The notes beneath the pieces are model-generated. The model searched no databases, was not told the DNA's origin, and saw only the letters and a program-made list of their open reading frames with translations. 64,000 bases of DNA from positions 128,001-192,000 of the IMG/VR virus record IMGVR_UViG_3300045988_154312; one strand, given 5' to 3'. The stretch is from a virus. Position numbers and translations under genes: made by a program. This document shows, one piece after another, positions 34,004 through 48,889 of the stretch (its first letter is position 1; each line of letters begins with the position of its first letter).

Positions 34004-34025
34004 GTCGCTCCGCTCCGAAATCATC
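34004..34025 (+). promoter_or_regulatory. Hairpin-TCC-GAAATC motif copy (degenerate stem)
   Basis: gtcgc-TCC-gctcc-GAAATCATC. The flanks match the consensus but the stem is weak. Confidence 0.3.
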
Positions 34026-34480: not shown

Positions 34481-34771
34481 ATGTTCTTAGACTTTCTTAG
34501 CGGAAGTCTAGATTTTAAAGAATCTTCGTTAGAAGCAAAAGTAACGAATTTGTTCTTTGAAGAAAACGGAAATCTTCTAATTAATGTATCTGCTATGGCG
34601 GATACATCAATAGGAAGATTAAAATCTCTTTTACAATTCAAATTCACAGGAGAAGTTTTGTCCTGCGAGTTTGAAGGTATTGACTACACTGTTCCCCATG
34701 CACAAATCATGGGAGAATTGGTAGATGCAATAGAAAAATTGTGTCTACCTATGTATGAGGAGGAAGAATAG
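34481..34771 (+). CDS. Hypothetical protein (possibly N-terminal part of a TAG-interrupted gene)
   Basis: 96-aa ORF with no SD. Same frame as 34844..35155 and separated from it only by TAG 34769-34771 plus open codons. Confidence 0.4.
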   Translation: MFLDFLSGSLDFKESSLEAKVTNLFFEENGNLLINVSAMADTSIGRLKSLLQFKFTGEVLSCEFEGIDYTVPHAQIMGELVDAIEKLCLPMYEEEE

Positions 34772-34843
34772 ATAAAGACCATCGATTTCAAATATAACGC
34801 AGAAAAATACTGCGTTAAAAATTTCTTAGACGATTCTGGATTA

Positions 34844-35155
34844 TTGTCCAGAAAAGTCTGGTTCGATGACCGTGAGGGGTGTCCTCACGACCGAAAGGAC
34901 CTCAGTATTGTTTCTGTTGTAGATAACATGGCAACATGTGCCTACACAGAGTTAGACAGGAATATCGGTGAATTTGTCGAGCTCACCGTAGAAGTTCCTG
35001 TCGGAAATCTTCACCTTCGCGGTTCAGAAGCCGTTGAGGTGGAATATGAACGTATCCTTTCTACTATAGATGAAGAAGCCGCGGCAATAATCCGCGGCTT
35101 AGTGTGGGAGAAGGAAAAAGATGCAGCTGTTGCCGGCTATAACGGCTGCATCTAA
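34844..35155 (+). CDS. Hypothetical protein (start uncertain)
   Basis: Only a TTG start and no SD. The frame is open back to the TAG at 34769. Followed by a strong terminator. Confidence 0.45.
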   Translation: MSRKVWFDDREGCPHDRKDLSIVSVVDNMATCAYTELDRNIGEFVELTVEVPVGNLHLRGSEAVEVEYERILSTIDEEAAAIIRGLVWEKEKDAAVAGYNGCI

Positions 35156-35171
35156 TTTAATAGTTTATTCT

Positions 35172-35204
35172 AGAGAGCTCCATATGGGGCTCTCTTTATT
35201 TTTT
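35172..35204 (+). terminator. Intrinsic terminator
   Basis: agagagc/gctctct stem, then ttatttttt. Confidence 0.7.
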
Positions 35205-35222
35205 AATAGGAGGCATACTGTT

Positions 35223-35552
35223 ATGTTAAACCGCACTGAACATTCTGTAAAAATTTATAATACCATTGGCGTAGAAACGCCAGATATGGTATTAGAACAA
35301 TACAAAGGGGAACCTATTAGAGTTTCCTGCGAATCTCGTAAAGTCGATACCATCGAAGGTATTGATATTTATGAAAATATTTATGGTGAGGTCACTGGCC
35401 TCCCAGAATTTGCGGAAGGCGTATACTACGTCGTTTCCGCTATGGTGCGTCAAGCACTACCCGGGAGAAAAGACTTACTTTCTCCTGGTCAATTAATTAG
35501 GAATGAGGCCGGACAACCAATAGGTTGCCTAGGTCTTGTTCGCAACAGTTAA
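35223..35552 (+). CDS. Hypothetical protein
   Basis: SD TAGGAGG, then ATG at 35223 (MLNRTEHSVKIYN...). Terminator downstream. Confidence 0.65.
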   Translation: MLNRTEHSVKIYNTIGVETPDMVLEQYKGEPIRVSCESRKVDTIEGIDIYENIYGEVTGLPEFAEGVYYVVSAMVRQALPGRKDLLSPGQLIRNEAGQPIGCLGLVRNS

Positions 35553-35559
35553 GTATTTT

Positions 35560-35609
35560 AGCTTTAGTCGTAGGTATATTATATATCTATGGCTAAAGCT
35601 TTATTTTTT
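35560..35609 (+). terminator. Intrinsic terminator
   Basis: agctttagtc/ggctaaagct stem (one G-T pair), then ttatttttt. Confidence 0.7.
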
Positions 35610-35966
35610 GTTAATAAATATTATAATTATACTATTAATAGAGACATTGATGGCGTAATTATGATATTTATATTTTTTTTATAAATATCGTCCGGCGACA
35701 GGTGTCCGCCCACATTGTTTCGGCACTCACGAAATCACGTTTTTTTATAATATAACGTGAGTGTTATGTGGGCGGTACCGTATTTGCCTTCCGACGCTTG
35801 CGACGTTGGGCTCTGGGCCCGCGTTGCTTCGTCTCTGGTCGGCAAATACTCACCTGTCGCCTCTATATGTATTCCGGCAGTGTCCCTTCGGGTCGTATGT
35901 ACGGAATATATTTTTTTCTTATGTATGCGATCCTGCTGTGGTCGTTTACTAGTGTGTTTTTTATAT

Positions 35967-35987
35967 GACGCTCCGCGTCGAAATGTT
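35967..35987 (+). promoter_or_regulatory. Hairpin-TCC-GAAAT motif copy
   Basis: gacgc-TCC-gcgtc-GAAATG, 77 nt upstream of ATG 36044. Confidence 0.5.
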
Positions 35988-36043
35988 TTATGAGGGTATT
36001 TTGCCCTCAGTATTTTATTTGTTTCATAGAGGAGGAAATTGTC

Positions 36044-36421
36044 ATGAAAAAGATTACTGTTATTAGAAAAAACGGCGTAATTGCCGATGTTGTAGTAAGT
36101 GGCACTGAAGAGCAAGGTAAAAACTTGTTTTTAGACCATCCGTTGTTCAAGAATTATTTCGTTCGGGAAGCTAGAGTATTTGCCCCAGAAACCGAATGTT
36201 GGCGGTTCAGCGTTCCTAACCATGACGACATGGAAGTGTCTGTAATCAGAAGCTCCATGACTTATGGAGGAGCAGAAGGGCTATTCGAGTTGGCGATGCT
36301 TCGCAATGATAGATGCATATATGATACGCCTATCACCAACGATGTAGTTGGTTGGCTAGATGAACAAGATGTACTGGACATCTTAGAAGATGTTCAACGC
36401 ATCTACGGAGAGGAGGCATAG
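36044..36421 (+). CDS. Hypothetical protein
   Basis: SD AGAGGAGGAAA, then ATG 36044 (MKKITVIRKNG...). Confidence 0.65.
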   Translation: MKKITVIRKNGVIADVVVSGTEEQGKNLFLDHPLFKNYFVREARVFAPETECWRFSVPNHDDMEVSVIRSSMTYGGAEGLFELAMLRNDRCIYDTPITNDVVGWLDEQDVLDILEDVQRIYGEEA

Positions 36422-36422
36422 C

Positions 36423-36710
36423 ATGAAATTTATTCTTTTCGGTGAAGCTATGCCGAAGACAGAATTTAATAGCCCAGACTGCTACCATGCGTTACAATAT
36501 GTTTTGAACACCTTCTTCAAGGATTGTGTCGTTGCAGAAAATGTGACATCCTTAGAAGAAGATGTCGTAGCGGTCTGTATTCGTTCGTGGGCAAACATCA
36601 GTTCTGAAGAAGAACCGGTATCCTATGAACGTCATCCTGCATATTTATTGGACGAAGGGAGATATAACAAATTATCTCCTAGTACTCTAGCAATCATTGC
36701 TGGAGATTAG
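36423..36710 (+). CDS. Hypothetical protein
   Basis: ATG 36423 directly after the upstream TAG. SD GGAGAGGAGG lies inside the upstream gene end. Confidence 0.6.
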   Translation: MKFILFGEAMPKTEFNSPDCYHALQYVLNTFFKDCVVAENVTSLEEDVVAVCIRSWANISSEEEPVSYERHPAYLLDEGRYNKLSPSTLAIIAGD

Positions 36711-36738
36711 CCCCCCGCCGGGGCTAAACCTTCTACGG
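36709..36738 (+). promoter_or_regulatory. Hairpin + CCTTCTACG element directly after a stop codon
   Basis: agcccc-ccgcc-ggggct, then aaaCCTTCTACGgg. Confidence 0.4.
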
Positions 36739-36829
36739 GATTACTATGTCGATATTTACGGCATGGTGCTCCTGTTGAAGAATATATATAGTCTTATGTA
36801 CGGCTATGTACATTTCTCTATGTATCACA

Positions 36830-36853
36830 CGCCCCCGCCGGGGCGAAATCTTC
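36830..36853 (+). promoter_or_regulatory. Hairpin-GAAATC motif copy (4-nt loop variant)
   Basis: cgcccc-cgcc-ggggcg-AAATCTTC, 73 nt upstream of ATG 36904. Confidence 0.5.
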
Positions 36854-36903
36854 TTTGAGGGGTTCTTCCCTCATATTCGTCGTTCTGTGAAGGAGGAGAA
36901 AAT

Positions 36904-37068
36904 ATGTTTATCACAGGATTATATAATTATACGTTATTAACTCCAAATGGAGCTTATATTTCCGTACAAAGTACGGACGGTGTGTTTGATATTCTTCGTG
37001 AGAACGAAGGGTGTCAATTTATATCTAAAACATTAGTTGGTTATCAAAGTTGTGCAATGGCTGATTAA
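36904..37068 (+). CDS. Small hypothetical protein (54 aa, below ORF-track cutoff)
   Basis: SD AGGAGGAGAAAAT-ATG. MFITGLYNYTLLTPNG...AMAD. A hairpin follows the stop. Confidence 0.55.
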   Translation: MFITGLYNYTLLTPNGAYISVQSTDGVFDILRENEGCQFISKTLVGYQSCAMAD

Positions 37069-37153
37069 TGTAGAGGTGCTGGTAAGAGATTGCCGGCACC
37101 TTGCTTTAATTTAGTATTTGATATTTCATTATAAACATGAGGAGGTATACATC

Positions 37154-37300
37154 ATGTTAAAGAAACAATTTATTGGTTGGTTAAACGATTTTTACGCGGA
37201 AAATCCTATCACTTTCCGCATCTTTTGGTTTTTGGTGGGCTGGTTTATCGGCTCCACTGTCAAGATGGCTGTACTACAACATCGTCTAGCAAAACGCTAG
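37154..37300 (+). CDS. Small membrane protein (48 aa)
   Basis: SD GAGGAGG, then ATG 37154. Hydrophobic FRIFWFLVGWFIGSTV segment. Confidence 0.55.
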   Translation: MLKKQFIGWLNDFYAENPITFRIFWFLVGWFIGSTVKMAVLQHRLAKR

Positions 37301-37339
37301 CGGTGTAATGATTTCGCTGGAGGGTTAACTTTTGAAGTT

Positions 37340-37360
37340 TCCCCTCCGGGGCGAAATCTC
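37340..37360 (+). promoter_or_regulatory. Hairpin-TCC-GAAATCTC motif copy
   Basis: cccc-TCC-gggg-c-GAAATCTC, followed by ~340 nt without an ORF. Confidence 0.5.
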
Positions 37361-37698
37361 CTGTGACCTTCTCATTAATAGTAGGTCATGTTTTATTTCA
37401 TATAAAGCTTTATATGGAATGCTATGAGGTGTATGTTAATGTACTCATAATACCTCCCTTTAATAGATGCTTAACAATCTGATATGTATCTCATAGCATT
37501 CGATATAAGGTTTTATATACCTTAAAGTAAAGCCGTAGACTTAAAAAGTCTTAAGCTGTAGAAGCCGTTGGGACCGGCTCAAAAGAATAAGGACTTTTAG
37601 TCAAACTTCTTAATAAGATGATTTAATATCATCTTTAAAATTGTATAGTCAAATGTTTTATTTGTTATACAAAGTTCCTAACCTTACGGGAGAAGACA

Positions 37699-37719
37699 GC
37701 CCCTCCGGGGCGAAATCTC
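37699..37719 (+). promoter_or_regulatory. Hairpin-TCC-GAAATCTC motif copy
   Basis: gcccc-TCC-ggggc-GAAATCTC, 219 nt upstream of ATG 37918. Confidence 0.5.
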
Positions 37720-37832
37720 TCATGGGGCTTTCTGTGTGGAGGTCCCTTTCATACTTTTCTCCTCTCTCTCGCGGTGAGAAACTGCGGGAGATATGAGCGT
37801 TAGATGAGCGTTGACTTATCTAGCGTTGATAT

Positions 37833-37868
37833 CTCTTGCATGTGTGTTGATGCAAGAGGAGATTTTTT
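37833..37868 (+). terminator. Terminator-like hairpin inside the 5' leader of the 37918 gene
   Basis: ctcttgca/tgcaagag stem, then gagattttttc, about 50 nt before the start codon. Confidence 0.4.
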
Positions 37869-37917
37869 CACCACGAGAAGCTCAGTCGTGGTACTTTCAA
37901 AGAAAGGAGACATTTAT

Positions 37918-38625
37918 ATGTCTAAATTTGCAAACGTTGTATGTTATTTGTTCGGCTCCAACTCTAATGGTTGGGCACAAATGTTATCCGCTGTTGTAGA
38001 GGGTGTTCCTGGTGTCCGTGACACCAAACCTGTCAGAATTGAAACAGCAGGTCAATCTTATGTGGGTATGGGCTGTAATGCCGTAGCCCAAATCTTGGAG
38101 TTGTTCGCCAACAAGTCCGTTAATTACGGACAGTTCACTGGTGAAGTAGTGACTAGCGACGCTGTCGCTATCCGCTGTTATTCTATCATGAAAGCTATTA
38201 AAGATGGCTTAACGCCAGCTAAAGTAGCTGACCATGTTATGAAAGAAGCGGATACAGCTGAAGACCGCGAGCAGTTTAAGCGTCTTGCTATGGCAATCAA
38301 AGACTGTCAAAGCCAGGGTGTGCGTCTTCGCATTAGCCGTCTTTCCCAAGAGCACAGTTATGCTCTTGAGGTGCCAGAAGGAGTAGAACTCCAAGCTGGC
38401 GACGTGGTCAAATTTGACCGCGGTGTATCCGAAGACGGTGTCAAACTTGCGTATGGAGTGCAATCCAGCTACGCTTATGAAGTGGCTGAGGTCAATGATG
38501 AGCTTAAAGCTCTCAGACCTAAAAACACTCCAAATAGCAAGCACAGAATGGCGTGCGTTAACGCCACTCTTAACTTGATTCGCGAAATCAAGGCAGAAGA
38601 GGTCTCCGCAGAAGACCTCATCTAA
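37918..38625 (+). CDS. Hypothetical protein
   Basis: SD AAAGGAGA, then ATG 37918 (MSKFANVVCYLFG...). The upstream in-frame extension lacks an SD. Confidence 0.65.
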   Translation: MSKFANVVCYLFGSNSNGWAQMLSAVVEGVPGVRDTKPVRIETAGQSYVGMGCNAVAQILELFANKSVNYGQFTGEVVTSDAVAIRCYSIMKAIKDGLTPAKVADHVMKEADTAEDREQFKRLAMAIKDCQSQGVRLRISRLSQEHSYALEVPEGVELQAGDVVKFDRGVSEDGVKLAYGVQSSYAYEVAEVNDELKALRPKNTPNSKHRMACVNATLNLIREIKAEEVSAEDLI

Positions 38626-38629
38626 CATT

Positions 38630-38656
38630 GGGGGCATTTTGCCCCCTTTATTTTTA
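38630..38656 (+). terminator. Intrinsic terminator
   Basis: gggggc-atttt-gccccc, then tttattttt. Confidence 0.8.
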
Positions 38657-38678
38657 TTAGTAAAGGAGGGAGCCCCTG

Positions 38679-39167
38679 ATGGCTACTTTTAATATTAAGC
38701 ATTCCAACCAATCTATTCTTGACTATATGAGAGAAAAGATTACGGTTGAGTATAATGGCTCTGTCGAAGATGTCGACGGAGGCATTAAAGTTGAGGTTGA
38801 TGACAATCACCTTAAAGACATTACGGACGCATTCAGCCGTGCGAAACGTAATGCCATGTTCTCAGGCTGGGTAAAATCTGCCACTAAGTTTGTTGGCAGA
38901 CAAGCTGACACTGTGAAAGATGTCGGCATCGGTGCAGTTGGCATTAGCGCCAAAGGTATCTTTGGTGGTCTTAAAAAGACTGCTGAAGTAGCTATGGGTG
39001 CTACTGCTGTAATCGTAAACGAGGGTAAAGAAGCTTGGAAAGAAGCTTCTGTGAGCGATGAGCTCAGAAACCTCAAGAAATCCTTCGGTAGTACTGGCAA
39101 TGATACAGAAGGTATCGAAATCATTAAGGAAGATACTGTAGAAAATACTGCTGGCGAAAGAGCCTAG
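38679..39167 (+). CDS. Hypothetical protein with Gly/Ala-rich hydrophobic core
   Basis: SD AAAGGAGGGAG. VGIGAVGISAKGIFGGL...AMGATAVIV segment. Confidence 0.65.
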   Translation: MATFNIKHSNQSILDYMREKITVEYNGSVEDVDGGIKVEVDDNHLKDITDAFSRAKRNAMFSGWVKSATKFVGRQADTVKDVGIGAVGISAKGIFGGLKKTAEVAMGATAVIVNEGKEAWKEASVSDELRNLKKSFGSTGNDTEGIEIIKEDTVENTAGERA

Positions 39168-39367
39168 CAGTATAGACGATTGCTATTAATCGTCGGTAAA
39201 TATTAATAGCAGTTGCTCTAGTTGTCAGGGGCGAGTGTAGGTGACAACCTTATTCTAGTTATTTAGGATATTCCTAACTAGAACTGATAAGATAACTATG
39301 AATATCCTTATTATACAGTAATTTTATGCTTTGGACTGTATAATAGAATAAAAAGCACTAGAAATAG

Positions 39368-39420
39368 GGTTTAGTCTAGAGGAGCAGGGTTTGCTCTTCT
39401 AGGCTAAACCTTTATTTTTT
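39368..39420 (+). terminator. Long-stem intrinsic terminator
   Basis: 18-bp stem ggtttagtctagaggagc/gctcttctaggctaaacc (two G-T pairs), then tttatttttt. Confidence 0.7.
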
Positions 39421-39648
39421 CTTATGTTGAATATACATTTAGGTAATACTGTTGTTACAGCGTTAGCTAAATGTATATTTTTTTATAATTCGCGAAAAGC
39501 ATACCGCCTGAGTACGTATGGCGTAATTCGGGTGTCAGCTTTAGCGAAAGTCCATTTTTTTGGACACTTTTGGCAGGGGCTAATTTTTTTAGTGACTGCT
39601 TTTTTTTATCGGAACGATTACGTTTCCGATCGCCAAGAATTATTAAGG

Positions 39649-40443
39649 AGCGAGCGTCAGCGAGCGAATGTATATTTGTTTGTATATAAGCCCGAGCGAG
39701 CGAAGCGAGCGGAGGGCGTTTATTAGGTTCTCTGTGTACTCTCTTCCAAGAGAGTAGTTTTGTTTATTATTTGTATTGTAAGGCGAGCGAAGCGAGCCGT
39801 TAATATTCTTTGTTTACTTTCTTCTTAAGAAAGTAAGTATTGTATTATTTATTAGTAGTAGTTCTCTGCTATCTCTCTTGTAAAGAGAGTAGTTATGTAT
39901 TATATATATTTATATATGTAGATTCTCTGTTATCTCTCTTCTCAAGAGAGTAATTAGTTATTTATATATATATGTATCATAATAGTATTAACGCAGCGAG
40001 CGAAGCGAGCGGAGTATCTGTTATGTATAGTATATAGTTATTCCCGACGAGTGAGGAGGATACGACGAGCGAGTTGTAGTGTCCTAGCGTAAGCGACGAT
40101 CATAAGAGTATATATTTATATATTATATATAGGGCGAGCGAAGCGACCGTCAGGGAGCGGAGCGAGCATAGTATTATTATATAATATATTATAGGGAGCC
40201 TCAGCGACCGGAGTATATATATAGTCTTATAGGAGCTAGATAGGCAATAAGGATTGATAAGGATTTAGTATATCGTGATATAGTATATCGTATTATACTA
40301 TAGTAGTATATAGTCGATCCTTATTTACAGTAAGAAGGAAAAATCGGCCTTGAATTTCTGGAACCGAAGGTTTTAAAAAATTACGATATTTTCCGCCCGG
40401 GAGTATCTGTATCATATATATAGTAGGGAGCGTTAGCGACCGA
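39649..40443. repeat. Dispersed GC-rich repeat family (GCGAGCGAAGCGAGCGGAG and AGGGAGC-N3-AGCGACCG variants)
   Basis: Copies at ~39693, 39782, 39993, 40132, 40195 and 40425 embedded in TATATA-rich DNA. Confidence 0.7.
39728..39952. repeat. Four TTCT(C/T)TG-flanked hairpin repeats with covarying stems
   Basis: 39728-39757 (tactctctt/aagagagta), 39807-39837 (tactttctt/aagaaagta), 39862-39892 and 39923-39952. Confidence 0.75.
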
Positions 40444-41524
40444 TGGTATCATATATATACGTTAGTATATATTAAGTATTTTCTGCCGTCGGTATTTTGT
40501 TAAAAGAGAGACTAGTATATGTAATAATAGCCGCTTAGGATATTATGGTTTATATATAATATGTTTTTAGTTAATGTTTTTACTGTACATATTATATGTA
40601 CAGGTATTAAAAACTTTTAGGGTGGGATATCTTATAATAATATTGAACGTCAGTGAAATGTTATTATAGATTTAAATCTTATATTAGATATAATTTTAAT
40701 GAGAGCTATTAATGTGAAGAATAGGGAGCGCCGCGAATCTATTCAGCTATTAAAATTCTTAGTCGACACGATAGTATAGTATGGTAGAGATCGTGTCGAT
40801 AGGTTACGAGTGCTAACGAGTTATATGTAGAATTCGTTATTAAGAATAGTGTTATCGATGTAGCTTGCGAAGAGAAATAGTATTCTTTAGAATTCGTAAC
40901 AATATATCTAATGCGTTTGTGTGTCTATCGATATATATCAAGAAAATATATACCGACGTGTGCGAATGGAGTTTACGAAGTGTGGCACGCAATCAATTTT
41001 TATATCTCGTAACGAAGCCGTTTACGGTTCGTATTAGTATTATATATAGCGAAGCGAACAATGTAAGCGGAATGTAACTATATAATATTTAATACGAATT
41101 ATACCAAAGTATTAGAAGTTAGTAAGCGTCTAATAAGTAGGTGGTTTTTTGTTTGGGATCCGCCGTTATCTTAGTATTTCATTTACTAGCTAAGGTATTT
41201 AAAAGTCCCTTGCGTTTATTTTAGTCGAGTTATTATTTAATATATATTATATATAATAATAACGAAGAGCCATTACTGTTAAGAATGGATAGTAGACGAA
41301 ATTGGGAACGGGCCCCAATAATAGTTATTAGATTTTTAATATAATAACGTTAATGGTTCGTCGTGTACGATCCTCTGCGAGTTGTTTATCTTCACAGCAG
41401 ATTAATTACTATTAAGAGTTTGGAGCATTTTTAAAATGGGACAACATTTTGTTAGTATTCTTTGTCTATATTATATATATAAAAAAAAGACCCCCATGGG
41501 GCCGTTATATATTGTTTTGTATCT

Positions 41525-41561
41525 GGAGCGGTGAAACTTCGTTTCACCGGTATATTACTCA
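41525..41561 (+). promoter_or_regulatory. U1: GGAGC-[9-bp stem, TTC loop]-GTATATTACTCA element
   Basis: cggtgaaac-ttc-gtttcaccg with invariant flanks. One of three tandem copies. Confidence 0.45.
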
Positions 41562-41684
41562 TGCTTGAGTAAGAGTTATTTAAAAAATAAAAAAATATGT
41601 CAGAAAATAAAAAAGACCCCGAAGGGCCGTTTTTATATAATTATTTTTTTAATGTTCAGCTGTCGCTATCAATAATAAATTATT

Positions 41685-41722
41685 GGAAGCGGTGTAACGT
41701 AGTTACACCGGTATATTACTCA
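41685..41722 (+). promoter_or_regulatory. U2: GGAAGC-[9-bp stem, GTA loop]-GTATATTACTCA element
   Basis: cggtgtaac-gta-gttacaccg. The stem differs from U1 by compensatory changes. Confidence 0.45.
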
Positions 41723-41846
41723 CTTTAGATGCTTAGTTGTCAAAAAATAAAAAAATATTTTTTATTTAATTATATATATAGCAAACAATAAAAAAAAACA
41801 GCCTTAGATTTTTATATCCAAGACTGTTTTGTGTGTGTAAATTTCA

Positions 41847-41881
41847 GGAGCGGTGAACTGCGTTCACCGGTATATTACTCA
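41847..41881 (+). promoter_or_regulatory. U3: GGAGC-[8-bp stem, TGC loop]-GTATATTACTCA element
   Basis: cggtgaac-tgc-gttcaccg. Confidence 0.45.
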
Positions 41882-41985
41882 TATTAGTATATCATTAATT
41901 AATTTTGTAAAAATAATTAAATATTCATTATTAATGCATAATTGAAAGTACGGATATTTTTAAGTAAAAAAAATACAAAAAATTA

Positions 41986-42011
41986 AAGTCAGATAATATC
42001 TGGCTTTTTTT
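41986..42011 (+). terminator. Intrinsic terminator-like hairpin
   Basis: aagtcagat-aat-atctggctt, then a T run. Confidence 0.5.
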
Positions 42012-42633
42012 AATTTTGGTGTCGCCTGCGGTATATATAGGAAACAATAAAACATAATATACAGAATATGTATATTTATGAATACGAGCTTTTTTCAAAA
42101 GCGTTCTTCGACCATAGCTTACTCCGAAAAGTTTAAATGAAACGTCGTAAGCGTAGTAGTGACGCGGGTTTTTAATAATTTTATGTATAAGATTATTTAG
42201 GGTTAGGAACGATCGATATAAAAATTGCTCCCTTAACAGTTCTTATTCATCTCTTATATATACTATATATATAATATAATAATATTTATTTTTTTAAATA
42301 GTCCGCCGTCTCCTCACGAGCGCCAACACCAGTTATTTATTGCTTTATATACTATATATATAGGTAAAGCTATGGCTTTGTTCGTGCAGAAGATACGGCT
42401 CTTGGACTATAGGTGATACTGACTATACAGTATGCTCCCTTGGGGGGTGGGGGGAGTCAGTAACACTCTCAAGTTAGTTATTTTTATCTAAAAACTAATA
42501 AAAATCGTTTATGGCTATTAAAATGATCATAAGTCCGCAACACTTTAAAATCTCCCTTTAACAGCTAAAAACTAGTATTTTTTAAAATATCAAGTTGCTT
42601 TTATTTGCTATATTTTAGCCTATTTTCATATTA

Positions 42634-42689
42634 GATGTATTTGGTCCGATGTATTTGGTCCGATGTATTTGGTCCGATGTATTTGGTCA
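42634..42689. repeat. 4 x 14-bp perfect tandem direct repeat (iteron-like)
   Basis: GATGTATTTGGTCC x3 plus GATGTATTTGGTCA, followed by ~250 bp of almost pure TATA-type DNA. Confidence 0.9.
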
Positions 42690-43015
42690 CATAATATATT
42701 TAATTAGCGTAGCGTATTACTATATATATCATTAATCTGTTATAGCAACTTTATTAGTACTTAATAGCTGTATATAGTCATATATATAGTTTATTGTTAT
42801 ATTATATATATGGTTTAATATATATTATTAGTATTAAGTTATATTATATATTGCTATACTATGTATATATAATAGTATTAGTATATATGTATTATGTTAT
42901 TATATATTGTATTAAGATATATAATTAAGAGAAACTATTAAATGGAAAGATGCGGGCGATTTTGTATATGGTATTTTATATCAAGTCGTTCACGGATCCG
43001 TATATGGATTTTTAA

Positions 43016-43204
43016 ATGTATTGTATTTTGTCGGAGGAAAATATTATTTTAATAATATCAGCAGTAATTATGTTTTTACTATATAAATTAGGCAATAAAT
43101 TATTTAAAGAGCACTATTATAACAGTCGATTAAAAACTATATATTTAATTTTATGTTTTATAATAGTATGCATATTAATTAGACTATTATATTTATATAT
43201 ATAA
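43016..43204 (+). CDS. Small hydrophobic protein (uncertain)
   Basis: 62-aa ORF with two hydrophobic stretches and no clear SD. Confidence 0.35.
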   Translation: MYCILSEENIILIISAVIMFLLYKLGNKLFKEHYYNSRLKTIYLILCFIIVCILIRLLYLYI

Positions 43205-43222
43205 GATTAATATTCTTTAGTG

Positions 43223-43243
43223 CGTGCTCCGCACCGAAATCTC
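43223..43243 (+). promoter_or_regulatory. Hairpin-TCC-GAAATCTC motif copy
   Basis: gtgc-TCC-gcac-c-GAAATCTC, 63 nt upstream of ATG 43287 (first YY-tail gene). Confidence 0.5.
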
Positions 43244-43286
43244 CCGTAGTCCTTTTTTGTTGTATAGGAGTTAATGAGCGTAGCGA

Positions 43287-43487
43287 ATGAATCAATATTT
43301 AGTCGATCAGATTGTCGACCATAGCGACTGGATACGGTATACGCGTCCAAGGAAGATGTGTTATTCTGACGATATAAGCAAGAAATATGATCTAGATAAT
43401 ATAATCGTAGCAATTAGCGAAAGTTATTATAAATATAGTGCTGAATTATATTTACAATATTATATGTATTTAATAGTAGCAGAATAA
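43287..43487 (+). CDS. YY-tail family small protein
   Basis: C-terminus ...YSAELYLQYYMYLIVAE. Confidence 0.55.
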   Translation: MNQYLVDQIVDHSDWIRYTRPRKMCYSDDISKKYDLDNIIVAISESYYKYSAELYLQYYMYLIVAE

Positions 43488-43503
43488 ATGGAGGAAACTA
43501 ATA

Positions 43504-43767
43504 ATGAAATATTTAATACAAGAAAAAGTTGTCGGCGATATTAATCTTGAAATCGAAGCTTCCGATATGGTTAAAGCTGTTAAATTAGCTAGAAAATATA
43601 TCGAAGATAATTATAAAGATATTTTTATCGACTACGATTGTTTCCAAGAGAAACAAGTGTTTGGTTGTTCTGATCGAGAATTTAATAAAGACAGTAAAGA
43701 AGGATTTATTATGATTATTCGTGAAGACAAAAAAACAATGAGTCATTTTGAAATAAAAGTTAAATAA
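43504..43767 (+). CDS. Hypothetical small protein
   Basis: SD GGAGGAAA. 87 aa. Confidence 0.65.
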   Translation: MKYLIQEKVVGDINLEIEASDMVKAVKLARKYIEDNYKDIFIDYDCFQEKQVFGCSDREFNKDSKEGFIMIIREDKKTMSHFEIKVK

Positions 43768-43774
43768 AGTCGTT

Positions 43775-43978
43775 ATGAATAAGAATGAATTAATCGATAA
43801 TATTATCGATGCGGCCTGGATAATAAAAACAAAATATCCAAAATATATGCCGTCCCGAAACTTTCATATAGTCGACGTTATTACAAAAATTACTGTATAT
43901 AGTAATGGTAGTCAAGAAATTAACGGTATGATTTATTATAGCTATTATTTATTTTTAGGACATTTAGATTATGAATAA
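43775..43978 (+). CDS. YY-tail family small protein
   Basis: C-terminus ...NGMIYYSYYLFLGHLDYE. Confidence 0.6.
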   Translation: MNKNELIDNIIDAAWIIKTKYPKYMPSRNFHIVDVITKITVYSNGSQEINGMIYYSYYLFLGHLDYE

Positions 43979-44174
43979 ATCAAAGTTTTTCAATGAATTG
44001 GTATATTATAATATCGATAAATGTAAGATAAATAAATATGAAAAATATAATGTCGTTTATAATACTGGTTATAGTATTCTTAGGAATTATATTATTTATC
44101 GTAATGGCGACGAAAAATATAGTGCAAACATATATGTTTATTATTATCTATATTTAAGTTTAGAACATATATAA
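43971..44174 (+). CDS. YY-tail family small protein
   Basis: C-terminus ...YSANIYVYYYLYLSLEHI. Overlaps upstream gene end. Confidence 0.6.
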   Translation: MNKSKFFNELVYYNIDKCKINKYEKYNVVYNTGYSILRNYIIYRNGDEKYSANIYVYYYLYLSLEHI

Positions 44175-44186
44175 AGGAGGGATTAT

Positions 44187-44414
44187 ATGGAATGTTATAC
44201 TATATCTAAAAGAGAAATATTTATATCAGAAGTCAGAAGAATGACATCTAACGTTATGTGCATTTCATATTTCCCCCATCGGAATATTGAGCCGGCATAC
44301 TTTAATTTAATGGAAGGAATGTCTTATGACGGCGTAAAAAAAGATCCTTTATTCTTATACGATTATTATATATATTTATCTCTTCTAGAATTAGGATATT
44401 ATAATGAACCATAA
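44187..44414 (+). CDS. YY-tail family small protein
   Basis: SD AAGGAGGG. C-terminus ...LFLYDYYIYLSLLELGYYNEP. Confidence 0.65.
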   Translation: MECYTISKREIFISEVRRMTSNVMCISYFPHRNIEPAYFNLMEGMSYDGVKKDPLFLYDYYIYLSLLELGYYNEP

Positions 44415-44622
44415 ATTAAATAATATAGTTAGTAGAGAAAATTCAAAATTGCCTAATAAGATTTATAATAAATATATAGCAAGGCCAGATATTCAAGGCG
44501 ACTTATTAGTATATTATGATCTCGTATATGAATATGTATCTAATGGTATTGCATTATATGATTATTATATATTTTTAAATTATGTAGAATTAGGATACGA
44601 TAATGGACTGCAAAATAAATAA
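44404..44622 (+). CDS. YY-tail family small protein
   Basis: ...LPNKIYNKYIARP...IALYDYYIFLNYVELGYDNG. Confidence 0.6.
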   Translation: MNHKLNNIVSRENSKLPNKIYNKYIARPDIQGDLLVYYDLVYEYVSNGIALYDYYIFLNYVELGYDNGLQNK

Positions 44623-44797
44623 TATAATTTTTAATCATAATTTATTGTTACCTGATGAACTTTATAATAAATATATAATAAAACCAAATTTTTATAGTCG
44701 TATGGTAGTTTATTTCGGTCTTAGATATAAATACATATCTAATTCAAAAGAACTATATGACTATTATATATATTTATCATTAACAGGAACATTATGA
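44603..44797 (+). CDS. YY-tail family small protein
   Basis: ...LPDELYNKYIIKPNFY...KELYDYYIYLSLTGTL. Confidence 0.6.
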   Translation: MDCKINNIIFNHNLLLPDELYNKYIIKPNFYSRMVVYFGLRYKYISNSKELYDYYIYLSLTGTL

Positions 44798-45003
44798 AAG
44801 AATATCATTTATCAGAAGTATTAAGAATAACTTATCTTGTATACACTAAATATAATCGTAAGTATGATATAGATCTTAATTTTTTAATGTGTAGAAAATG
44901 AAATAATATTATCGTATATATAAATGAATATAACGATACGTATTCTGGTAACTTATATTATGATTATTATATATATTTAAGTTTAATGGATAACAGTATA
45001 TGA
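44794..45003 (+). pseudogene. YY-tail family member interrupted by in-frame TGA (close paralog of 52103..52312)
   Basis: MKEYHLSEVLRITYLVYTKYNRKYDIDLNFLMCRK*NNIIVYINEYNDTYSGNLYYDYYIYLSLMDNSI. TGA at 44899-44901 where the paralog has TTA (Leu). Confidence 0.6.
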
Positions 45004-45197
45004 ATTGGAAAATGAAGTATTATCTAATAAATTTTGAATATGATATAGTGAGCAATTCATTTAGATGTAATACACAAAAATATATACTAGTTAATAATTC
45101 AAAATTTTTATATAATATAAATCTTGATGACGATACAAGGAATAGTGGATTTTATTATTATTACTATATATACTTAATGTTTATTGACAAGAGCTAA
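45000..45197 (+). CDS. YY-tail family small protein
   Basis: C-terminus ...NSGFYYYYYIYLMFIDKS. Confidence 0.6.
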   Translation: MNWKMKYYLINFEYDIVSNSFRCNTQKYILVNNSKFLYNINLDDDTRNSGFYYYYYIYLMFIDKS

Positions 45198-45209
45198 TAA
45201 GGAGAATAT

Positions 45210-45572
45210 ATGAAATTTGATCGATGTTTATTAAACGACAACACATATCTTTTCTTAGGCTATGATAAAGGACAAGAAGTATATTGCTTGCGAAATATTA
45301 TATGCATTAGAATTAAAGGAGTTTTAATGGTCGACGCTAGTTTGTTAAGAGTAAGAAAACGCAGCGCCGATAGTTTTGATATTAAGATGACATTACATAT
45401 TAATAGTAATAATGAAGTGTATAGATCATCCTATATATCGTTAAAACATCCTAATAAAAGTATTGTTATTAGAGATGACGACAGTCATCGTAAGGAATAT
45501 ATATTAGCATTAAGAAACTATATTATGGAATATAACAATATAGAACTATTAAGGAGTGAAAATATGTGTTAA
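45210..45572 (+). CDS. Hypothetical small protein
   Basis: SD AAGGAGAA. 120 aa. Confidence 0.65.
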   Translation: MKFDRCLLNDNTYLFLGYDKGQEVYCLRNIICIRIKGVLMVDASLLRVRKRSADSFDIKMTLHINSNNEVYRSSYISLKHPNKSIVIRDDDSHRKEYILALRNYIMEYNNIELLRSENMC

Positions 45573-45886
45573 ACTTAATTTCAAAGTATCAAGACGATAT
45601 TAAAAACTTTATTATTAATAAATATAGTCTAGGTAAAAAAAAATATAATTTCGATTATTTTTGTGAATCAGTTTTTAATTTAAAAGAACTTGATCTTTAC
45701 TATAAAAATGCTTGTCATTGTAAAATTATAAAATATAGTTGGCATCATGATAAAGAAGATCCATATCCTAAAAATATTGTTATACAATTTGAAAATAAAG
45801 AAACATTAAAAGATGTATCTCTTGATGATTTATTTTTAACAAAAAGTTCGTTAAAACAATACAATTGGTTTTTTAAAGAGAATTAA
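45566..45886 (+). CDS. Hypothetical protein, paralog of 50086..50538 C-terminal domain
   Basis: GTG start after AAGGAG. Shared CKI(I/V)KY.W...LFLT..SL..Y.WFFKE. Confidence 0.6.
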   Translation: MLNLISKYQDDIKNFIINKYSLGKKKYNFDYFCESVFNLKELDLYYKNACHCKIIKYSWHHDKEDPYPKNIVIQFENKETLKDVSLDDLFLTKSSLKQYNWFFKEN

Positions 45887-45901
45887 TAAGAAAGAACGCA
45901 C

Positions 45902-46231
45902 ATGAAACATTTATATTGTAAAGAAAAATTCGACAAAGAAAAATATGATCATATATTAAAATTAAAAGTATTAATATCTCAATGTAATTGCGGTAGTATG
46001 CTTCTATATCTTAATAAAATAATGGTTAAATTAGAAGCAATTGAACGCATCGAGTTCGATAAAAATAATGAATATCAATTAACATTATATATTCATTATC
46101 AAAAAAACAATAAAGATCTTTATGAAATCATCGAAGTAAAATTTGAAGATTATGAAGAATTCGAAGAATATAAAGAAATGATCGGCGACATTTTCTGTTA
46201 TACATTTATTAACGAAGAAGCGACTTATTAA
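45902..46231 (+). CDS. Hypothetical small protein
   Basis: 109-aa ORF in co-directional array. Confidence 0.6.
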   Translation: MKHLYCKEKFDKEKYDHILKLKVLISQCNCGSMLLYLNKIMVKLEAIERIEFDKNNEYQLTLYIHYQKNNKDLYEIIEVKFEDYEEFEEYKEMIGDIFCYTFINEEATY

Positions 46232-46242
46232 GGAGTAAAATT

Positions 46243-46557
46243 ATGGTACTAGAATTCTTAAGCGAAACCGATGCTCTTAATGCTTTTACATTTCATGGAC
46301 AAGATGTATTTAAAAGATTAAGAGAGCATCCATTATTCGTAGAAATTGAAAAAGAATATACACCGATAAAAGGCGAATCTATATTTAGTATCGGCTATGA
46401 TTCTGGACTAGAAAATCGTTATGTTACACGATTTATTAAAATAAAACGATATAAGAATTATGTGCGATTAATTCCAGAAAACGATACATATAATTGGATC
46501 GCAAAAGAATTAATCGATTTATTTATTTCCGATATGAAGTATAATGTTATTGTATAA
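46243..46557 (+). CDS. Hypothetical small protein
   Basis: SD AAGGAG. Confidence 0.65.
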   Translation: MVLEFLSETDALNAFTFHGQDVFKRLREHPLFVEIEKEYTPIKGESIFSIGYDSGLENRYVTRFIKIKRYKNYVRLIPENDTYNWIAKELIDLFISDMKYNVIV

Positions 46558-46569
46558 GGAGTAAAAACT

Positions 46570-46779
46570 ATGAAAAATTACGACCATGTTATAAAAAACA
46601 AAATATTACCTGGCGGCAAGCTTATATCTGATTATCAGATTATGACAGGAAACGGCTTGAACGAAGTGGAGTTGGAATATATCGACGAAGTCGGTATTTT
46701 GCCAGTAGCCCCAAAAGATCAATGGATTATCCCGAAAGGCTACGTAGTTGATTTAGATGGCTGCGTTAAAAAAGCATGA
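46570..46779 (+). CDS. Hypothetical small protein
   Basis: SD AAGGAG. Confidence 0.65.
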   Translation: MKNYDHVIKNKILPGGKLISDYQIMTGNGLNEVELEYIDEVGILPVAPKDQWIIPKGYVVDLDGCVKKA

Positions 46780-47084
46780 GAGATAAAAGTTACGCAATAG
46801 TATTTTATCACTATGATAAGAATAATAATTTTCATTACGGCGTTATTTCTTGTGAATACGGTTTTATGCGTCAATTATATTCTGCGTATTATACATATAT
46901 GACAGCTAGTATTGACTGTATGATTTCGATAATCGATGCTAACGAATTAAAGTATTTAGAAGAAATGGAACTAGCTTATGACGATCCAAATTATTATGCT
47001 AATGAAATACAAATGGCTATCGAAGAATGTAGCGTAACAGAATTGATTAAAAAATTAAATAAAAGAAGGGAAACTATACTATGA
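46776..47084 (+). CDS. Hypothetical small protein
   Basis: ATGA overlap with upstream gene. Confidence 0.6.
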   Translation: MRDKSYAIVFYHYDKNNNFHYGVISCEYGFMRQLYSAYYTYMTASIDCMISIIDANELKYLEEMELAYDDPNYYANEIQMAIEECSVTELIKKLNKRRETIL

Positions 47085-47302
47085 AAATATTATTAGCAGG
47101 ATTAATTATTGCTTTATTTACAGTATCAGCTATTGCCGCAAAAATATTAGGTATCGCAACAGTAATTGCTTTTGTATTAGCGTTAATCGGTTTATTCGAT
47201 GTACAAATGAGTACGGCTATTAATTTATTATTATTAACAGTCGGCGCCGGAACTTTTGCAATTATTTTAATGGCTATCGGTAAAGTATTAGCATTTAGAT
47301 AA
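47081..47302 (+). CDS. Small two-TM membrane protein
   Basis: ATGA overlap. Almost entirely hydrophobic (LLAGLIIALFTVSAIAA...LLLLTVGAGTFAIILMAIG). Confidence 0.6.
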   Translation: MKILLAGLIIALFTVSAIAAKILGIATVIAFVLALIGLFDVQMSTAINLLLLTVGAGTFAIILMAIGKVLAFR

Positions 47303-47303
47303 T

Positions 47304-47480
47304 ATGAATAAAAAACTATATCATGATATAACAAAACATATATATAGTATAAGTCTTAATAGAGATTTCGATAGATTTTTAATAGTACTTAATCTTAATA
47401 TAGATTTAACTAAAATATATGATAGCGAGATATACTATACTTTATATAAATATTATCTATATATAATGATTAAGATATAA
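47304..47480 (+). CDS. YY-tail family small protein (58 aa, below ORF-track cutoff)
   Basis: MNKKLYHDITKH...DSEIYYTLYKYYLYIMIKI. Confidence 0.5.
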   Translation: MNKKLYHDITKHIYSISLNRDFDRFLIVLNLNIDLTKIYDSEIYYTLYKYYLYIMIKI

Positions 47481-47490
47481 AAGGTTTTGT

Positions 47491-47688: not shown

Positions 47689-47715
47689 TATTAATATATA
47701 TTTAACGAGGTGATT

Positions 47716-48659: not shown

Positions 48660-48667
48660 TATGAAAA

Positions 48668-48874: not shown

Positions 48875-48889
48875 TAAGGAGGCGATCAT

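What the first reader, a model, noticed from the sequence alone, without database searches (positions are those of the whole stretch)
39168..43015. About 3.8 kb without a credible ORF in a densely coding phage genome, separating the late/GC-rich block from the small-gene array
Elsewhere in the window genes abut or overlap. Here the only long ORFs, 39424..39726 and 40865..41077, run through repeats, lack an SD and have implausible composition. The interval alternates almost pure TATA-type DNA with short GC-rich islands. It holds at least five separate repeat or hairpin families, listed in other findings, plus many isolated perfect hairpins. Examples are 39182-39210 (gctattaat/attaatagc), 39310-39344 (ttatacagt/actgtataa), 39431-39479 (11-bp stem), 39609-39631 and 40762-40800 (tcgacacgat/atcgtgtcga). 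Its position, after the structural genes and a giant polymerase gene and before ~70 co-directional tiny early-type genes, resembles the joined ends of a linear genome. There, terminal repeats, packaging signals, origins and early promoters cluster, as in N4, T5 or SPO1-type organisation.
Basis: partly seen in the sequence, partly recalled or inferred. Interest (0 to 1): 0.75.

Follow-up and report, generated by a model that had tools for sequence, protein, structure and literature searches.

The report
Conserved non-coding RNA island in phage
The 3.8-kb gene-free stretch is real, but about 3 kb of it is better conserved than the neighbouring protein genes and folds into RNA structures, including a known orphan RNA motif (OTKONC), so most of it is probably a cluster of phage non-coding RNA genes and not merely joined genome ends.

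Summary
Window 39168-43015 has no credible gene, and in relatives the gap runs to 43286. Both long ORFs are broken in most of about 20 related phage contigs. These are ~230-kb jumbo phages from human oral metagenomes.

The core, 39366-42330, averages about 88% nucleotide identity among relatives, with stretches at 100%. The flanking protein genes average about 77%, and the downstream small-gene array barely aligns.

Rfam places OTKONC RNA (RF03053) at 41289-41459 (+). The window copy scores 138.5 bits, just under the 141.4 threshold. Seven relatives score 142-160.

OTKONC lies at the 3' end of a structured plus-strand region of about 790 nt (40675-41462). That region has 193 predicted pairs, 99.2% kept, 18 with compensatory changes.

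- Upstream are three plus-strand terminator hairpins, strand-specific GC islands and four hairpin repeats.
- Downstream are three ~160-bp units with an invariant hairpin plus GGTATATTAC. They are separated by terminators that fold best on the minus strand.
- Only the last ~600 bp (42330-42930) evolves fast. It holds a 14/21-bp repeat in 1-6 copies and TATA-type DNA, and could be an origin or packaging site.

Physical ends cannot be tested here. Contig breaks cluster in the region, but those whose end sequence I read lie in or next to repeats.

The parts
39168..39365 (+). Poorly conserved spacer after the 162-aa gene, with two perfect hairpins (39182-39210, 39310-39344)
   Evidence: Sequence. 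Conservation 0.33-0.8.
39366..39422 (+). Terminator of the late/GC-rich operon: stem of about 20 bp plus a T-run
   Evidence: Terminator scan. Every variant in relatives folds 10-17 kcal/mol better on + than on -. G-U pairs are kept.
39429..39487 (+). Second long hairpin followed by T7 (a terminator, or a small RNA of its own)
   Evidence: One-sided GU<->AU/GC changes keep pairing on the + strand only, with no unpaired cell at those pairs. + is more stable in all variants.
39488..39608 (+). Conserved structured segment (helix 39491-39546, hairpin 39550-39565) ending in hairpin 39572-39600 plus T8
   Evidence: 91-98% conserved per 25-nt bin. Pairs are kept through wobble changes. + is more stable in all variants.
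39609..39631 (+). Conserved 9-bp hairpin ATCGGAACG/CGTTTCCGAT
39640..40230 (+). Strand-specific GC islands (AGCGNAGCG) alternating with TATA DNA, and four hairpin repeat units (stems 39737-39756, 39814-39836, 39873-39889, 39934-39950)
   Evidence: All 8 + strand AGCGNAGCG sites of the 64-kb window lie between 39699 and 43277, with none on the - strand there. Repeat families D1 and D3. Copy 2 of the hairpin has both arms changed (CTTTCTT/AAGAAAG). Islands gain and lose GCGA units among relatives.
40243..40325 (+). Long imperfect inverted repeat / hairpin, 90-96% conserved
   Evidence: (I6).
40475..40510 (+). 98% conserved box CTGCCGTCGGTATTTTG, resembling the CGGTATATT core of the three units. 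Possible start signal of the large RNA (inferred)
40675..41462 (+). Large structured RNA region of about 790 nt. Includes an almost invariant stretch of ~95 nt (41140-41232)
   Evidence: RNAalifold on 25 sequences gives 193 pairs. 99.2% of cells are paired. 18 pairs have changes on both sides, against 10.9 +/- 1.5 in shuffles (0/500) and 1-5 in slid controls. 687 G-U cells against 14 A-C cells (the structure was predicted on +). MFE is -204 kcal/mol on + and -156 on -.
41289..41459 (+). OTKONC RNA motif (Rfam RF03053), the 3' domain of the large RNA
   Evidence: 138.5 bits, E 4e-23, model positions 1-159. Homologous copies in 7 relatives score 142-160 bits, above the gathering score of 141.4.
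41481..41503 (-). T0: intrinsic terminator for leftward transcription (U8 on the minus strand)
   Evidence: The minus strand is more stable in all 17 complete variants. GU<->AU and CG<->UG variation is compatible with minus-strand pairing only.
41527..41561 (.). Unit 1 core: hairpin (9-bp stem, 3-nt loop) plus the invariant box GGTATATTAC(TCA)
   Evidence: Exact 17-mer occurs 3 times against 0.16 expected. The hairpin is paired in all 56 distinct copies, with 2 compensatory positions. It is present in all relatives that reach it.
41608..41628 (-). T1: minus-strand terminator GGCC-C(UUCG)G-GGUC plus U6
   Evidence: Invariant UUCG tetraloop. An invariant G-U pair on the minus strand is A-C on the plus strand. 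About -12 kcal/mol on - against -3 to -7 on + in all variants.
41690..41722 (.). Unit 2 core: hairpin plus GGTATATTAC
41786..41830 (-). T2: long hairpin preceded by A9 on + (U9 on the minus strand)
   Evidence: The minus strand is more stable in 12 of 15 variants. Terminator scan.
41849..41881 (.). Unit 3 core: hairpin plus GGTATATTAC
41985..42014 (+). T3: plus-strand terminator (T-G wobble on +, T7 tail)
   Evidence: -10.8 kcal/mol on + against -5.8 on - in all variants. Terminator scan.
42015..42330 (.). Conserved block (~75-91% per 25-nt bin) of unknown strand. Starts with GCGGTATATATAGG and contains a helix 42118-42120/42149-42151 with three compensatory pairs
42331..42930 (.). Fast-evolving AT-rich spacer: G6TG6 hairpin 42435-42460, tandem repeat 42634-42689 (4 x 14 bp) and TATA-type DNA 42700-42930. 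Candidate origin or packaging site
   Evidence: Conservation 0.1-0.6. The repeat is present as 1-6 copies of a 14-bp unit or 3-4 copies of a 21-bp unit in relatives.
43215..43243 (+). GC hairpin plus CGAAATCTC element just upstream of the first conserved small gene (43287). One of seven such + strand intergenic elements in the window
   Evidence: Stems covary between sites while the TCC loop is nearly always kept.

Best explanation
The interval is a genuinely non-coding, strongly constrained RNA island of a ~230-kb jumbo phage from the human mouth.

Layout, read left to right:
1. Three plus-strand hairpin/T-run terminators close the late operon. They may themselves be two small RNAs.
2. A field of plus-strand-specific GC islands and four hairpin repeats follows.
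3. Next is a plus-strand structured RNA of about 0.8 kb whose last 170 nt are the Rfam motif OTKONC.
4. Three tandem ~160-bp units each carry an invariant hairpin plus GGTATATTAC. They are bounded by terminators built for the minus strand, so they are short leftward transcription units or a leftward terminator array.
5. A plus-strand terminator and a further 300-nt conserved block complete the constrained part.
6. Only the last ~600 bp evolves freely, with a copy-number-variable repeat and pure AT DNA. That part is the plausible DNA-level site (origin or packaging).

Shown: the interval is non-coding. Its conservation exceeds that of the adjacent genes. Plus-strand RNA pairing is kept by compensatory and wobble changes. 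The OTKONC identity holds. The terminators have the stated strandedness.

Inferred: these units are separately transcribed, stable RNAs. Constraint covers loops and junctions as well as stems, with ~95 nt almost invariant. I therefore infer that the large RNA works as a folded, protein- or self-associating particle made during infection, and not as a simple antisense regulator. What it acts on is unknown.
For: Coding is excluded.

Conservation. Twenty-one sequences were aligned and up to 29 loci. 100-bp bins across 39400-42299 average 0.88 identity, against 0.77 for the flanking genes at 37800-39199. Most of the downstream array does not align.

OTKONC. The window copy scores 138.5 bits, E 4e-23, full length. 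Seven relatives score above the gathering threshold.

Structure of 40675-41462.
- 193 pairs, 99.2% of cells paired.
- 18 pairs with both-sided changes, against 10.9 +/- 1.5 in shuffles (0/500) and 1-5 in slid controls.
- Many one-sided GU<->AU/GC changes, which are tolerated only on the plus strand.
- MFE -204 kcal/mol on + and -156 on -.

Structure of 39366-39640. 85 pairs are kept, largely through wobble changes.

Minus-only pairing variation in T0 and the UUCG loop in T1 are.

The AGCGNAGCG motif is exclusive to the plus strand of this interval. The hairpin of the three units is paired in 56 of 56 distinct copies, with two compensatory positions.
Against: No transcript data exist, so no RNA end or promoter is mapped. 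Sigma-70-like promoters are not enriched (28 found against 27 expected).

All relatives are close (pairwise identity to the window 83-89% over the aligned region). Most pairs therefore never vary. The long-range helices (40702-40714 with 41451-41462, and two others) have only one-sided support.

The shuffle control does not correct for relatedness.

The hairpins of the repeat units show only Watson-Crick changes, so they could act in DNA (cruciform or promoter hairpins) and not in RNA. The orientation of the three units is not settled: T0-T2 favour the minus strand, T3 favours the plus strand.

The window's own OTKONC copy is 2.9 bits below Rfam's threshold.
Confidence: 0.6

Rival explanations
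1. Joined ends of a linear genome. On this reading the whole interval is DNA-level machinery: terminal repeat, packaging signal, origin and early promoters. Its conservation then reflects protein-binding and end-processing sites.
For: The interval lies between the late block and the small-gene array. Four of seven full-length contigs end in the region. A repeat array lies next to about 230 bp of pure AT DNA. N4 has three hairpin-type early promoters (PMC4496689), and there are three hairpin-plus-box units here.
Against: The breaks whose end sequence was read sit in or next to repeats, and three full-length contigs run through. No part of the interval is repeated elsewhere in the 64-kb window. 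GC skew does not switch. Each of the three units is followed by a terminator and not by a gene. The bulk of the constraint shows plus-strand G-U-preserving substitutions, which DNA sites do not need. The candidate origin/packaging part is the least conserved part.
Confidence: 0.15
2. An array of DNA hairpin promoters and terminators for the phage's own two-barrel RNA polymerase, as N4 uses hairpin promoters. On this reading the conserved elements are recognition sites, and the transcripts are short-lived by-products or replication primers.
For: Two classes of element share one architecture: a GC hairpin with a 3-nt loop followed by a conserved 8-10-mer. One class is CGGTG..CACCG plus GTATATTAC, three copies, in this interval only. 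The other is an N4-5/TCC/N4-5 hairpin plus GAAATCTC, at seven intergenic + strand sites in the window. Stems covary while the box (and in the second class the loop) stays fixed, as described for N4 promoters (PMC4496689). The phage encodes a 1489-aa RdRP/YonO-like polymerase just upstream. TATATTAC is listed as the predicted phiKZ promoter in Table 2 of PMC7058600.
Against: TATATTAC is not enriched in the window and is not found before the small genes (9 matches against 12.5 expected). The polymerase is unrelated to N4's T7-like enzyme. This reading does not explain the 0.8-kb region with RNA-type covariation or the OTKONC motif. Several elements of the second class are followed at once by a hairpin and a T-run.
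Confidence: 0.15
3. The conservation reflects a recent recombinational sweep or a mobile cassette shared among these phages, not function.
For: Phage genomes are mosaic. The flanking small-gene array is highly variable.
Against: The interval is collinear and in the same place in every relative. Conservation is patchy on a 20-nt scale, with variable loops and spacers between near-invariant blocks. Substitutions are non-random and keep base pairs. GC islands and repeat numbers have diverged.
Confidence: 0.05
4. Hidden protein-coding sequence: small proteins, a recoded genetic code or a decayed gene.
For: Two ORFs of 100 and 70 aa exist in the window. A minus-strand 55-aa ORF is intact in 12 of 15 relatives.
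Against: Frameshifts and stops occur in most relatives. Substitutions show no 3-base periodicity in any candidate. Starts are TTG with no ribosome-binding site. The TATA stretches carry stop codons in all frames. A decayed gene would not be better conserved than live genes.
Confidence: 0.02

Closest known systems
OTKONC RNA motif (Rfam RF03053; from memory, it comes from the Weinberg et al. 2017 screen of intergenic regions, PMC5737381, whose main text does not name it)
   Same: The same locus. The covariance model matches 41289-41459 over its full length (138.5 bits). The homologous copies in seven relatives score 142-160 bits, above the gathering score. Its helices show compensatory changes here.
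   Different: Rfam describes a 159-nt stand-alone sRNA. Here it is the 3' end of a structured region of about 790 nt inside a 3-kb conserved non-coding block of a ~230-kb phage. A full-text search found no paper naming it. An exact 17-mer of its core was not found in any real homologue among 185,579 bacterial and archaeal species genomes.
Large ornate phage-associated RNAs GOLLD and ROOL
   Same: They are several hundred nucleotides long, multi-helix and often phage- or prophage-borne, with function unknown. Constraint extends beyond the stems.
   Different: No Rfam match to either. There are no adjacent tRNA genes. No sequence relationship was detected. The resemblance is of kind only.
Bacteriophage N4 early promoters (three DNA hairpins recognised by the virion RNA polymerase; PMC4496689)
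   Same: There are three copies. Each has a GC-rich hairpin with a 3-nt loop, conserved outer stem bases, variable but paired inner stem bases and a conserved sequence just downstream. A phage RNA polymerase gene is nearby.
   Different: Stems are 8-9 bp, against 5-7 bp in N4. The polymerase is a two-barrel RdRP/YonO-type enzyme, not T7-like. The units are followed by terminators and not by early genes. Neighbouring terminators point leftward.
Phage T5 injection-stop / terminal non-coding region, and SPO1/T7-type end regions (recalled from memory, not tested)
   Same: An ORF-free stretch dense in direct and inverted repeats, next to a block of small early-type genes.
   Different: No terminal repeat or physical end could be shown. 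The constraint here has RNA-type signatures.
Iteron-type replication origins (lambda, plasmids)
   Same: Tandem 14/21-bp direct repeats lie next to an AT-rich stretch at 42634-42930.
   Different: Copy number falls to one in several relatives. No initiator gene was identified next to it. There is no GC-skew switch.

Membership tests
Rfam RF03053 OTKONC RNA | Covariance-model score at or above the curated gathering score (141.4 bits) | tested here: inconclusive
   The window copy scores 138.5 bits, 2.9 below threshold, E 4e-23. The homologous position in 7 of 7 relatives tested scores 142.1-160.2 bits.
Rfam RF03053 OTKONC RNA | Full-length match to the model with its consensus helices | tested here: met
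   Model positions 1-159 of 159 match, with mean posterior 0.94. The helices in A1 columns 662-817 contain 5 pairs with compensatory changes.
Intrinsic (rho-independent) terminators | GC-containing stem-loop directly followed by a U-run on the transcribed strand | tested here: met
   15 sites against 2.1 expected. Strand was assigned by folding all variants: plus strand for 39366-39412, 39429-39480, 39572-39600 and 41985-42007; minus strand for 41489-41503, 41615-41628 and 41795-41830.
N4-type hairpin promoters | Hairpin of 5-7 bp with a 3-nt loop, conserved contact bases, variable but paired remaining stem | tested here: inconclusive
   The 3-nt loop, the conserved outer stem and the covarying inner stem are present. 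Stems are 8-9 bp, and the N4 contact bases were not compared.
N4-type hairpin promoters | Recognised by a T7-like virion RNA polymerase and placed upstream of early genes | tested here: not met
   The only polymerase seen is a two-barrel RdRP-type protein. The units are followed by terminators, and no gene lies within 1.1 kb.
phiKZ-type early promoter (TATATTAC) | Motif recurring upstream of many early genes | tested here: not met
   TATATTAC occurs 9 times in the window against 12.5 expected. Only the three copies in the units and two others are on the + strand.
Physical genome ends / direct terminal repeat | Fixed read termini, doubled coverage, the same sequence at both ends of virion DNA | not testable with these tools
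   No reads are available. Contig ends cluster here, but the ones inspected lie in or next to repeats, and 3 of 7 full-length contigs cross the region.
Iteron-type origin | Several direct repeats next to an AT-rich unwinding element | tested here: inconclusive
   The window has 4 x 14 bp followed by about 230 bp of TATA DNA. Relatives have 1-6 copies or a 21-bp unit.
Iteron-type origin | GC-skew switch at the origin | tested here: not met
   Cumulative GC skew rises monotonically across the window. All genes are co-directional, which weakens this test.
GOLLD / ROOL large RNAs | Match to the Rfam models | tested here: not met
   No match at E up to 1 in 38600-43400.
Protein-coding gene | Reading frame kept in relatives and substitutions concentrated at third codon positions | tested here: not met

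The most novel reading that the evidence does not exclude
OTKONC is only the 3' domain of a new large (0.8 kb or more) multi-domain phage RNA. That RNA sits in an island of at least six further, separately terminated small RNAs on both strands. The island's hairpin-plus-box elements, together with the TCC-loop/GAAATCTC hairpins elsewhere in the genome, would be start or stop signals read by the phage's YonO/RdRP-type single-chain RNA polymerase. That would be N4-like hairpin recognition evolved independently in a two-barrel enzyme.
Probability: 0.25. Interest if true: 0.8.

Novelty: new variant of a known kind. Interest (0 to 1): 0.62.

Why it matters
OTKONC is an orphan Rfam motif. A full-text search of the paper library finds no paper that names it, and I could find no organism, context or function for it.

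This analysis places it in a widespread family of ~230-kb phages of the human mouth. A protein search with the flanking gene returned 200 related proteins, many on contigs of 225-231 kb. The motif appears to be part of a much larger constrained RNA locus that evolves more slowly than the phage's own proteins.

That makes a concrete system available for asking what large phage RNAs do. It also flags two families of hairpin-plus-box signals that could reveal how a two-barrel single-chain phage RNA polymerase finds its start or stop sites.

The analysis also shows that the clustering of contig ends in this region need not mark genome termini, since every break whose end sequence was read lies in or next to a repeat.

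Tried and rejected
- Megablast of 38000-44000 against GenBank phages found nothing. tRNA/tmRNA search found none. Rfam at gathering thresholds found nothing in the whole window.
- tblastn of the 1489-aa polymerase against phages matched only its C-terminal SLOG domain. A PDB sequence search with its first 1300 aa found nothing. A profile-based search for distant polymerase loci in IMG/VR returned only the same six loci, so no more divergent homologues of the interval were available.
- TATATTAC as a general promoter is rejected because it is not enriched.
- TATTATATATATTTA looked like an early promoter (18 matches against 3.4 expected, nearly all on +). It is in fact the coding sequence for a conserved ..LYDYYIYL.. 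motif of a paralogous small-protein family.
- A scan of 185,579 species genomes with an OTKONC 17-mer gave 62 hits, about the number expected by chance, in unrelated bacteria and archaea. Two extra IMG/VR hits (L038, L055) were also chance matches.
- Sigma-70 promoter scan: no excess.
- GGA-rich sponge RNA idea: by a rough hand count, GGA is not enriched.
- The similarity of GTTCACC in one hairpin to the P4 iteron TGTTCACC (recalled from memory) holds in only one of the three units and was treated as coincidence.
- The paper behind the Rfam family holds no text on OTKONC, and its supplements are not held.
- Attempts to fix the orientation of the three units from promoter-like sequences on either strand led nowhere.

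Full report
**The observation.** The interval 39168-43015 holds no credible gene. The two longest ORFs are 39424-39726 (100 aa) and 40865-41077 (70 aa). With crude gene calls the gap is the largest in the 64-kb window by a factor of four. So are the repeat families: GC islands, four CTCTCTT/AAGAGAG hairpin units, three ~160-bp units and four tandem 14-bp units. Terminator-like hairpins number 15 in 38500-43600 against 2.1 +/- 1.3 in shuffles. There are no tRNAs, no Rfam hit at curated thresholds and no close GenBank phage.

**The phage.**
- All long ORFs but one (25051-25500 on the minus strand) lie on the plus strand.
- Upstream are a DnaE-type DNA polymerase, tail and baseplate proteins, and a 1489-aa protein. 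That protein has a two-barrel RdRP-type polymerase domain and a C-terminal YpsA/SLOG domain.
- Downstream are dozens of tiny genes without family matches.
- The 162-aa gene that ends at 39167 has 26 relatives in IMG/VR, on contigs of up to 236 kb.
- A wider protein search returned 200 relatives, many on contigs of 225-231 kb.
- One record holding the same genome is labelled a human oral metagenome.
- This is therefore a common ~230-kb jumbo phage of the mouth.

**Comparative result.**
- The interval is collinear in every relative.
- 100-bp bins across 39400-42299 average 0.88 nucleotide identity. The protein-coding flank 37800-39199 averages 0.77. Most of the small-gene array does not align at all.
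- At 25-nt resolution many blocks are 95-100% conserved. About 95 nt at 41140-41232 are almost invariant. Short variable loops and spacers separate the blocks.
- Conservation collapses only at 42330-42930.
- Both window ORFs are frameshifted or stopped in most relatives, and their substitutions are spread evenly over codon positions.
- No other ORF of at least 25 aa behaves as coding. One minus-strand ORF survives in 12 of 15 relatives only because the DNA is conserved.
- ORF 43016-43204 is absent from relatives, so the ORF-free span effectively reaches 43286.

**A known RNA inside it.** A permissive Rfam search gives one hit, OTKONC (RF03053), at 41289-41459 on the plus strand. It scores 138.5 bits against a gathering score of 141.4, with E 4e-23 and full model length. 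The same position in seven relatives scores 142-160 bits. The locus is therefore the Rfam family, and the window's copy falls just short because of small insertions. A full-text search of the paper library finds no paper that names OTKONC. The exact core 17-mer occurs in bacterial and archaeal species genomes only at chance level.

**More RNA than the motif.**
- An alignment of 25 distinct sequences of 40675-41462 folds into 193 consensus pairs.
- 99.2% of the cells are paired.
- 18 pairs carry changes on both sides, against 10.9 +/- 1.5 in shuffles (0 of 500 reach it) and 1-5 when partners are slid by 1-3 columns.
- Many further pairs vary on one side only, between G-U and A-U or G-C. Such changes keep pairing on the plus strand but give A-C mismatches on the minus strand. 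The counts are 687 G-U cells against 14 A-C cells, with the caveat that the structure was predicted on the plus strand.
- Minimum free energy is -204 kcal/mol on plus and -156 on minus.
- OTKONC occupies the 3' quarter of this structure.
- The local helices are well supported. The three long-range helices have only one-sided support and remain predictions.
- The 5' block 39366-39640 behaves the same way: 85 pairs are kept, largely through wobble-preserving changes.

**Partition by terminators.** Every variant of each hairpin found in the relatives was folded on both strands.
- Always more stable on the plus strand: 39366-39412 (followed by a T-run), 39429-39480 (T7) and 39572-39600 (T8).
- More stable on the minus strand: 41489-41503 (all complete variants), 41615-41628 (all variants) and 41795-41830 (12 of 15 variants). 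Each is preceded on the plus strand by A5-A9, which is a U-run on the minus strand.
- On the minus strand, 41615-41628 reads GGCC-C(UUCG)G-GGUC, with an invariant UUCG loop and an invariant G-U pair.
- 41489-41503 varies in ways that are compatible only with minus-strand pairing.
- 41985-42007 again favours the plus strand.

The interval therefore contains leftward transcription, unlike the rest of the window.

**The three units.**
- Each has a hairpin with an 8-9-bp stem and a 3-nt loop. It is paired in all 56 distinct copies collected, with two compensatory positions.
- The invariant box GGTATATTAC follows directly, then a second hairpin that is variable in sequence but usually foldable.
- The spacers between the conserved hairpin and the minus-strand terminators are the least conserved parts (0.41-0.74).
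- The architecture recalls N4's three hairpin promoters (PMC4496689). TATATTAC is listed as the predicted phiKZ promoter in Table 2 of PMC7058600.
- However, the box is not enriched elsewhere in the window and no gene follows the units.
- I therefore leave open whether they are small leftward RNA genes, a terminator array protecting the large RNA from antisense transcription, or polymerase-specific signals.

**Other features.**
- The motif AGCGNAGCG occurs eight times on the plus strand of the window, all between 39699 and 43277, and never on the minus strand there.
- The GC islands gain and lose GCGA units among relatives.
- The 14-bp repeat GATGTATTTGGTCC is present as one to six copies, or as a 21-bp unit, in different relatives.

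**Genome ends.**
- Of seven full-length contigs, four end in the region. One ends inside the 14-bp array, where it has six copies. One starts in a polymorphic GC island. One ends at a duplicated GCAACACTTTAAAA box. One ends near 43261, in the start of the small-gene array.
- Three full-length contigs run through.
- Several shorter IMG/VR contigs stop in or just after the ~160-bp repeats.
- Nothing in the interval is repeated elsewhere in the window, and GC skew does not switch.
- The clustering of contig ends is therefore explained by repeats and local polymorphism. Physical termini, a terminal repeat or an origin can be neither shown nor excluded without reads. The variable 600 bp is the only part whose properties fit such a DNA-level role.

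**Verdict.**
The position and the distal AT-rich repeat segment fit it. The main content is a strongly constrained non-coding RNA island that includes a known orphan RNA motif within a larger structure.
- Function remains unknown. Constraint covers loops and junctions as well as stems, which points to a folded, partner-binding RNA and not to an antisense regulator.
- This is a new variant of a known kind (phage-encoded structured RNA), of moderate to high interest.

Noticed in passing
window 34000-34024, 35715-35738 (variant), 37336-37360, 37695-37719, 43215-43243, 57583-57607, 63512-63536 (+ strand): A second family of hairpin-plus-box elements. Each has a 4-5-bp GC stem, usually with a TCC loop, followed by (C)GAAATCTY, always in intergenic gaps on the + strand. 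Stems differ between sites and relatives but stay complementary (GGGC/GCCC, CCCC/GGGG, GGAC/GTCC, GCAC/GTGC). Several are followed by another hairpin and a T-run. They are candidate polymerase-specific start or stop signals, or small RNA elements.
   Followed up: partly
window 29221-33690 (+): A 1489-aa protein combines a two-barrel RdRP/YonO-type RNA polymerase domain (Pfam PF05183, residues 558-706) with a C-terminal YpsA/SLOG domain (PF06908). The polymerase part has no homologue among GenBank phages by tblastn and no PDB sequence match.
   Followed up: partly
window 43287-52310 (+): The small-gene array contains a paralogous family of proteins of about 65-75 aa that share a C-proximal ..LYDYYIYL.. 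motif. This produces the recurring DNA word TATTATATATATTTA. The array is poorly conserved among relatives.
   Followed up: partly
L009:16806-16883 (+): A relative carries a RAGATH-18 RNA (RF03064, 71.1 bits against a gathering score of 44.9) in its small-gene array. The window has no such hit.
   Followed up: no
window 33691-34480 and 37301-37917: Two further ORF-poor gaps of about 0.8 and 0.6 kb lie in the GC-richer block. Each carries one or two of the TCC-loop/GAAATCTC elements. 37300-37400 and 37700-37800 are 88-89% conserved, while the stretch between them does not align among relatives.
   Followed up: no
window 27000-39000 versus 43000-62000: There is a sharp composition step: 40-46% GC in the block holding the polymerase and the genes up to 39167, against 22-30% in the small-gene array.
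   Followed up: no
window 43016-43204 (+): This 62-aa ORF at the edge of the interval has no counterpart in relatives (conservation about 0.2). It is either strain-specific or not a gene.
   Followed up: partly
window 42435-42460: A conserved G6TG6 tract lies inside a CTCCC/GGGAG hairpin, in the otherwise variable segment.
   Followed up: no
window 25051-25500 (-): This is the only long minus-strand ORF in the window that does not lie inside a longer plus-strand ORF. It sits in a low-GC gap between plus-strand tail genes.
   Followed up: no
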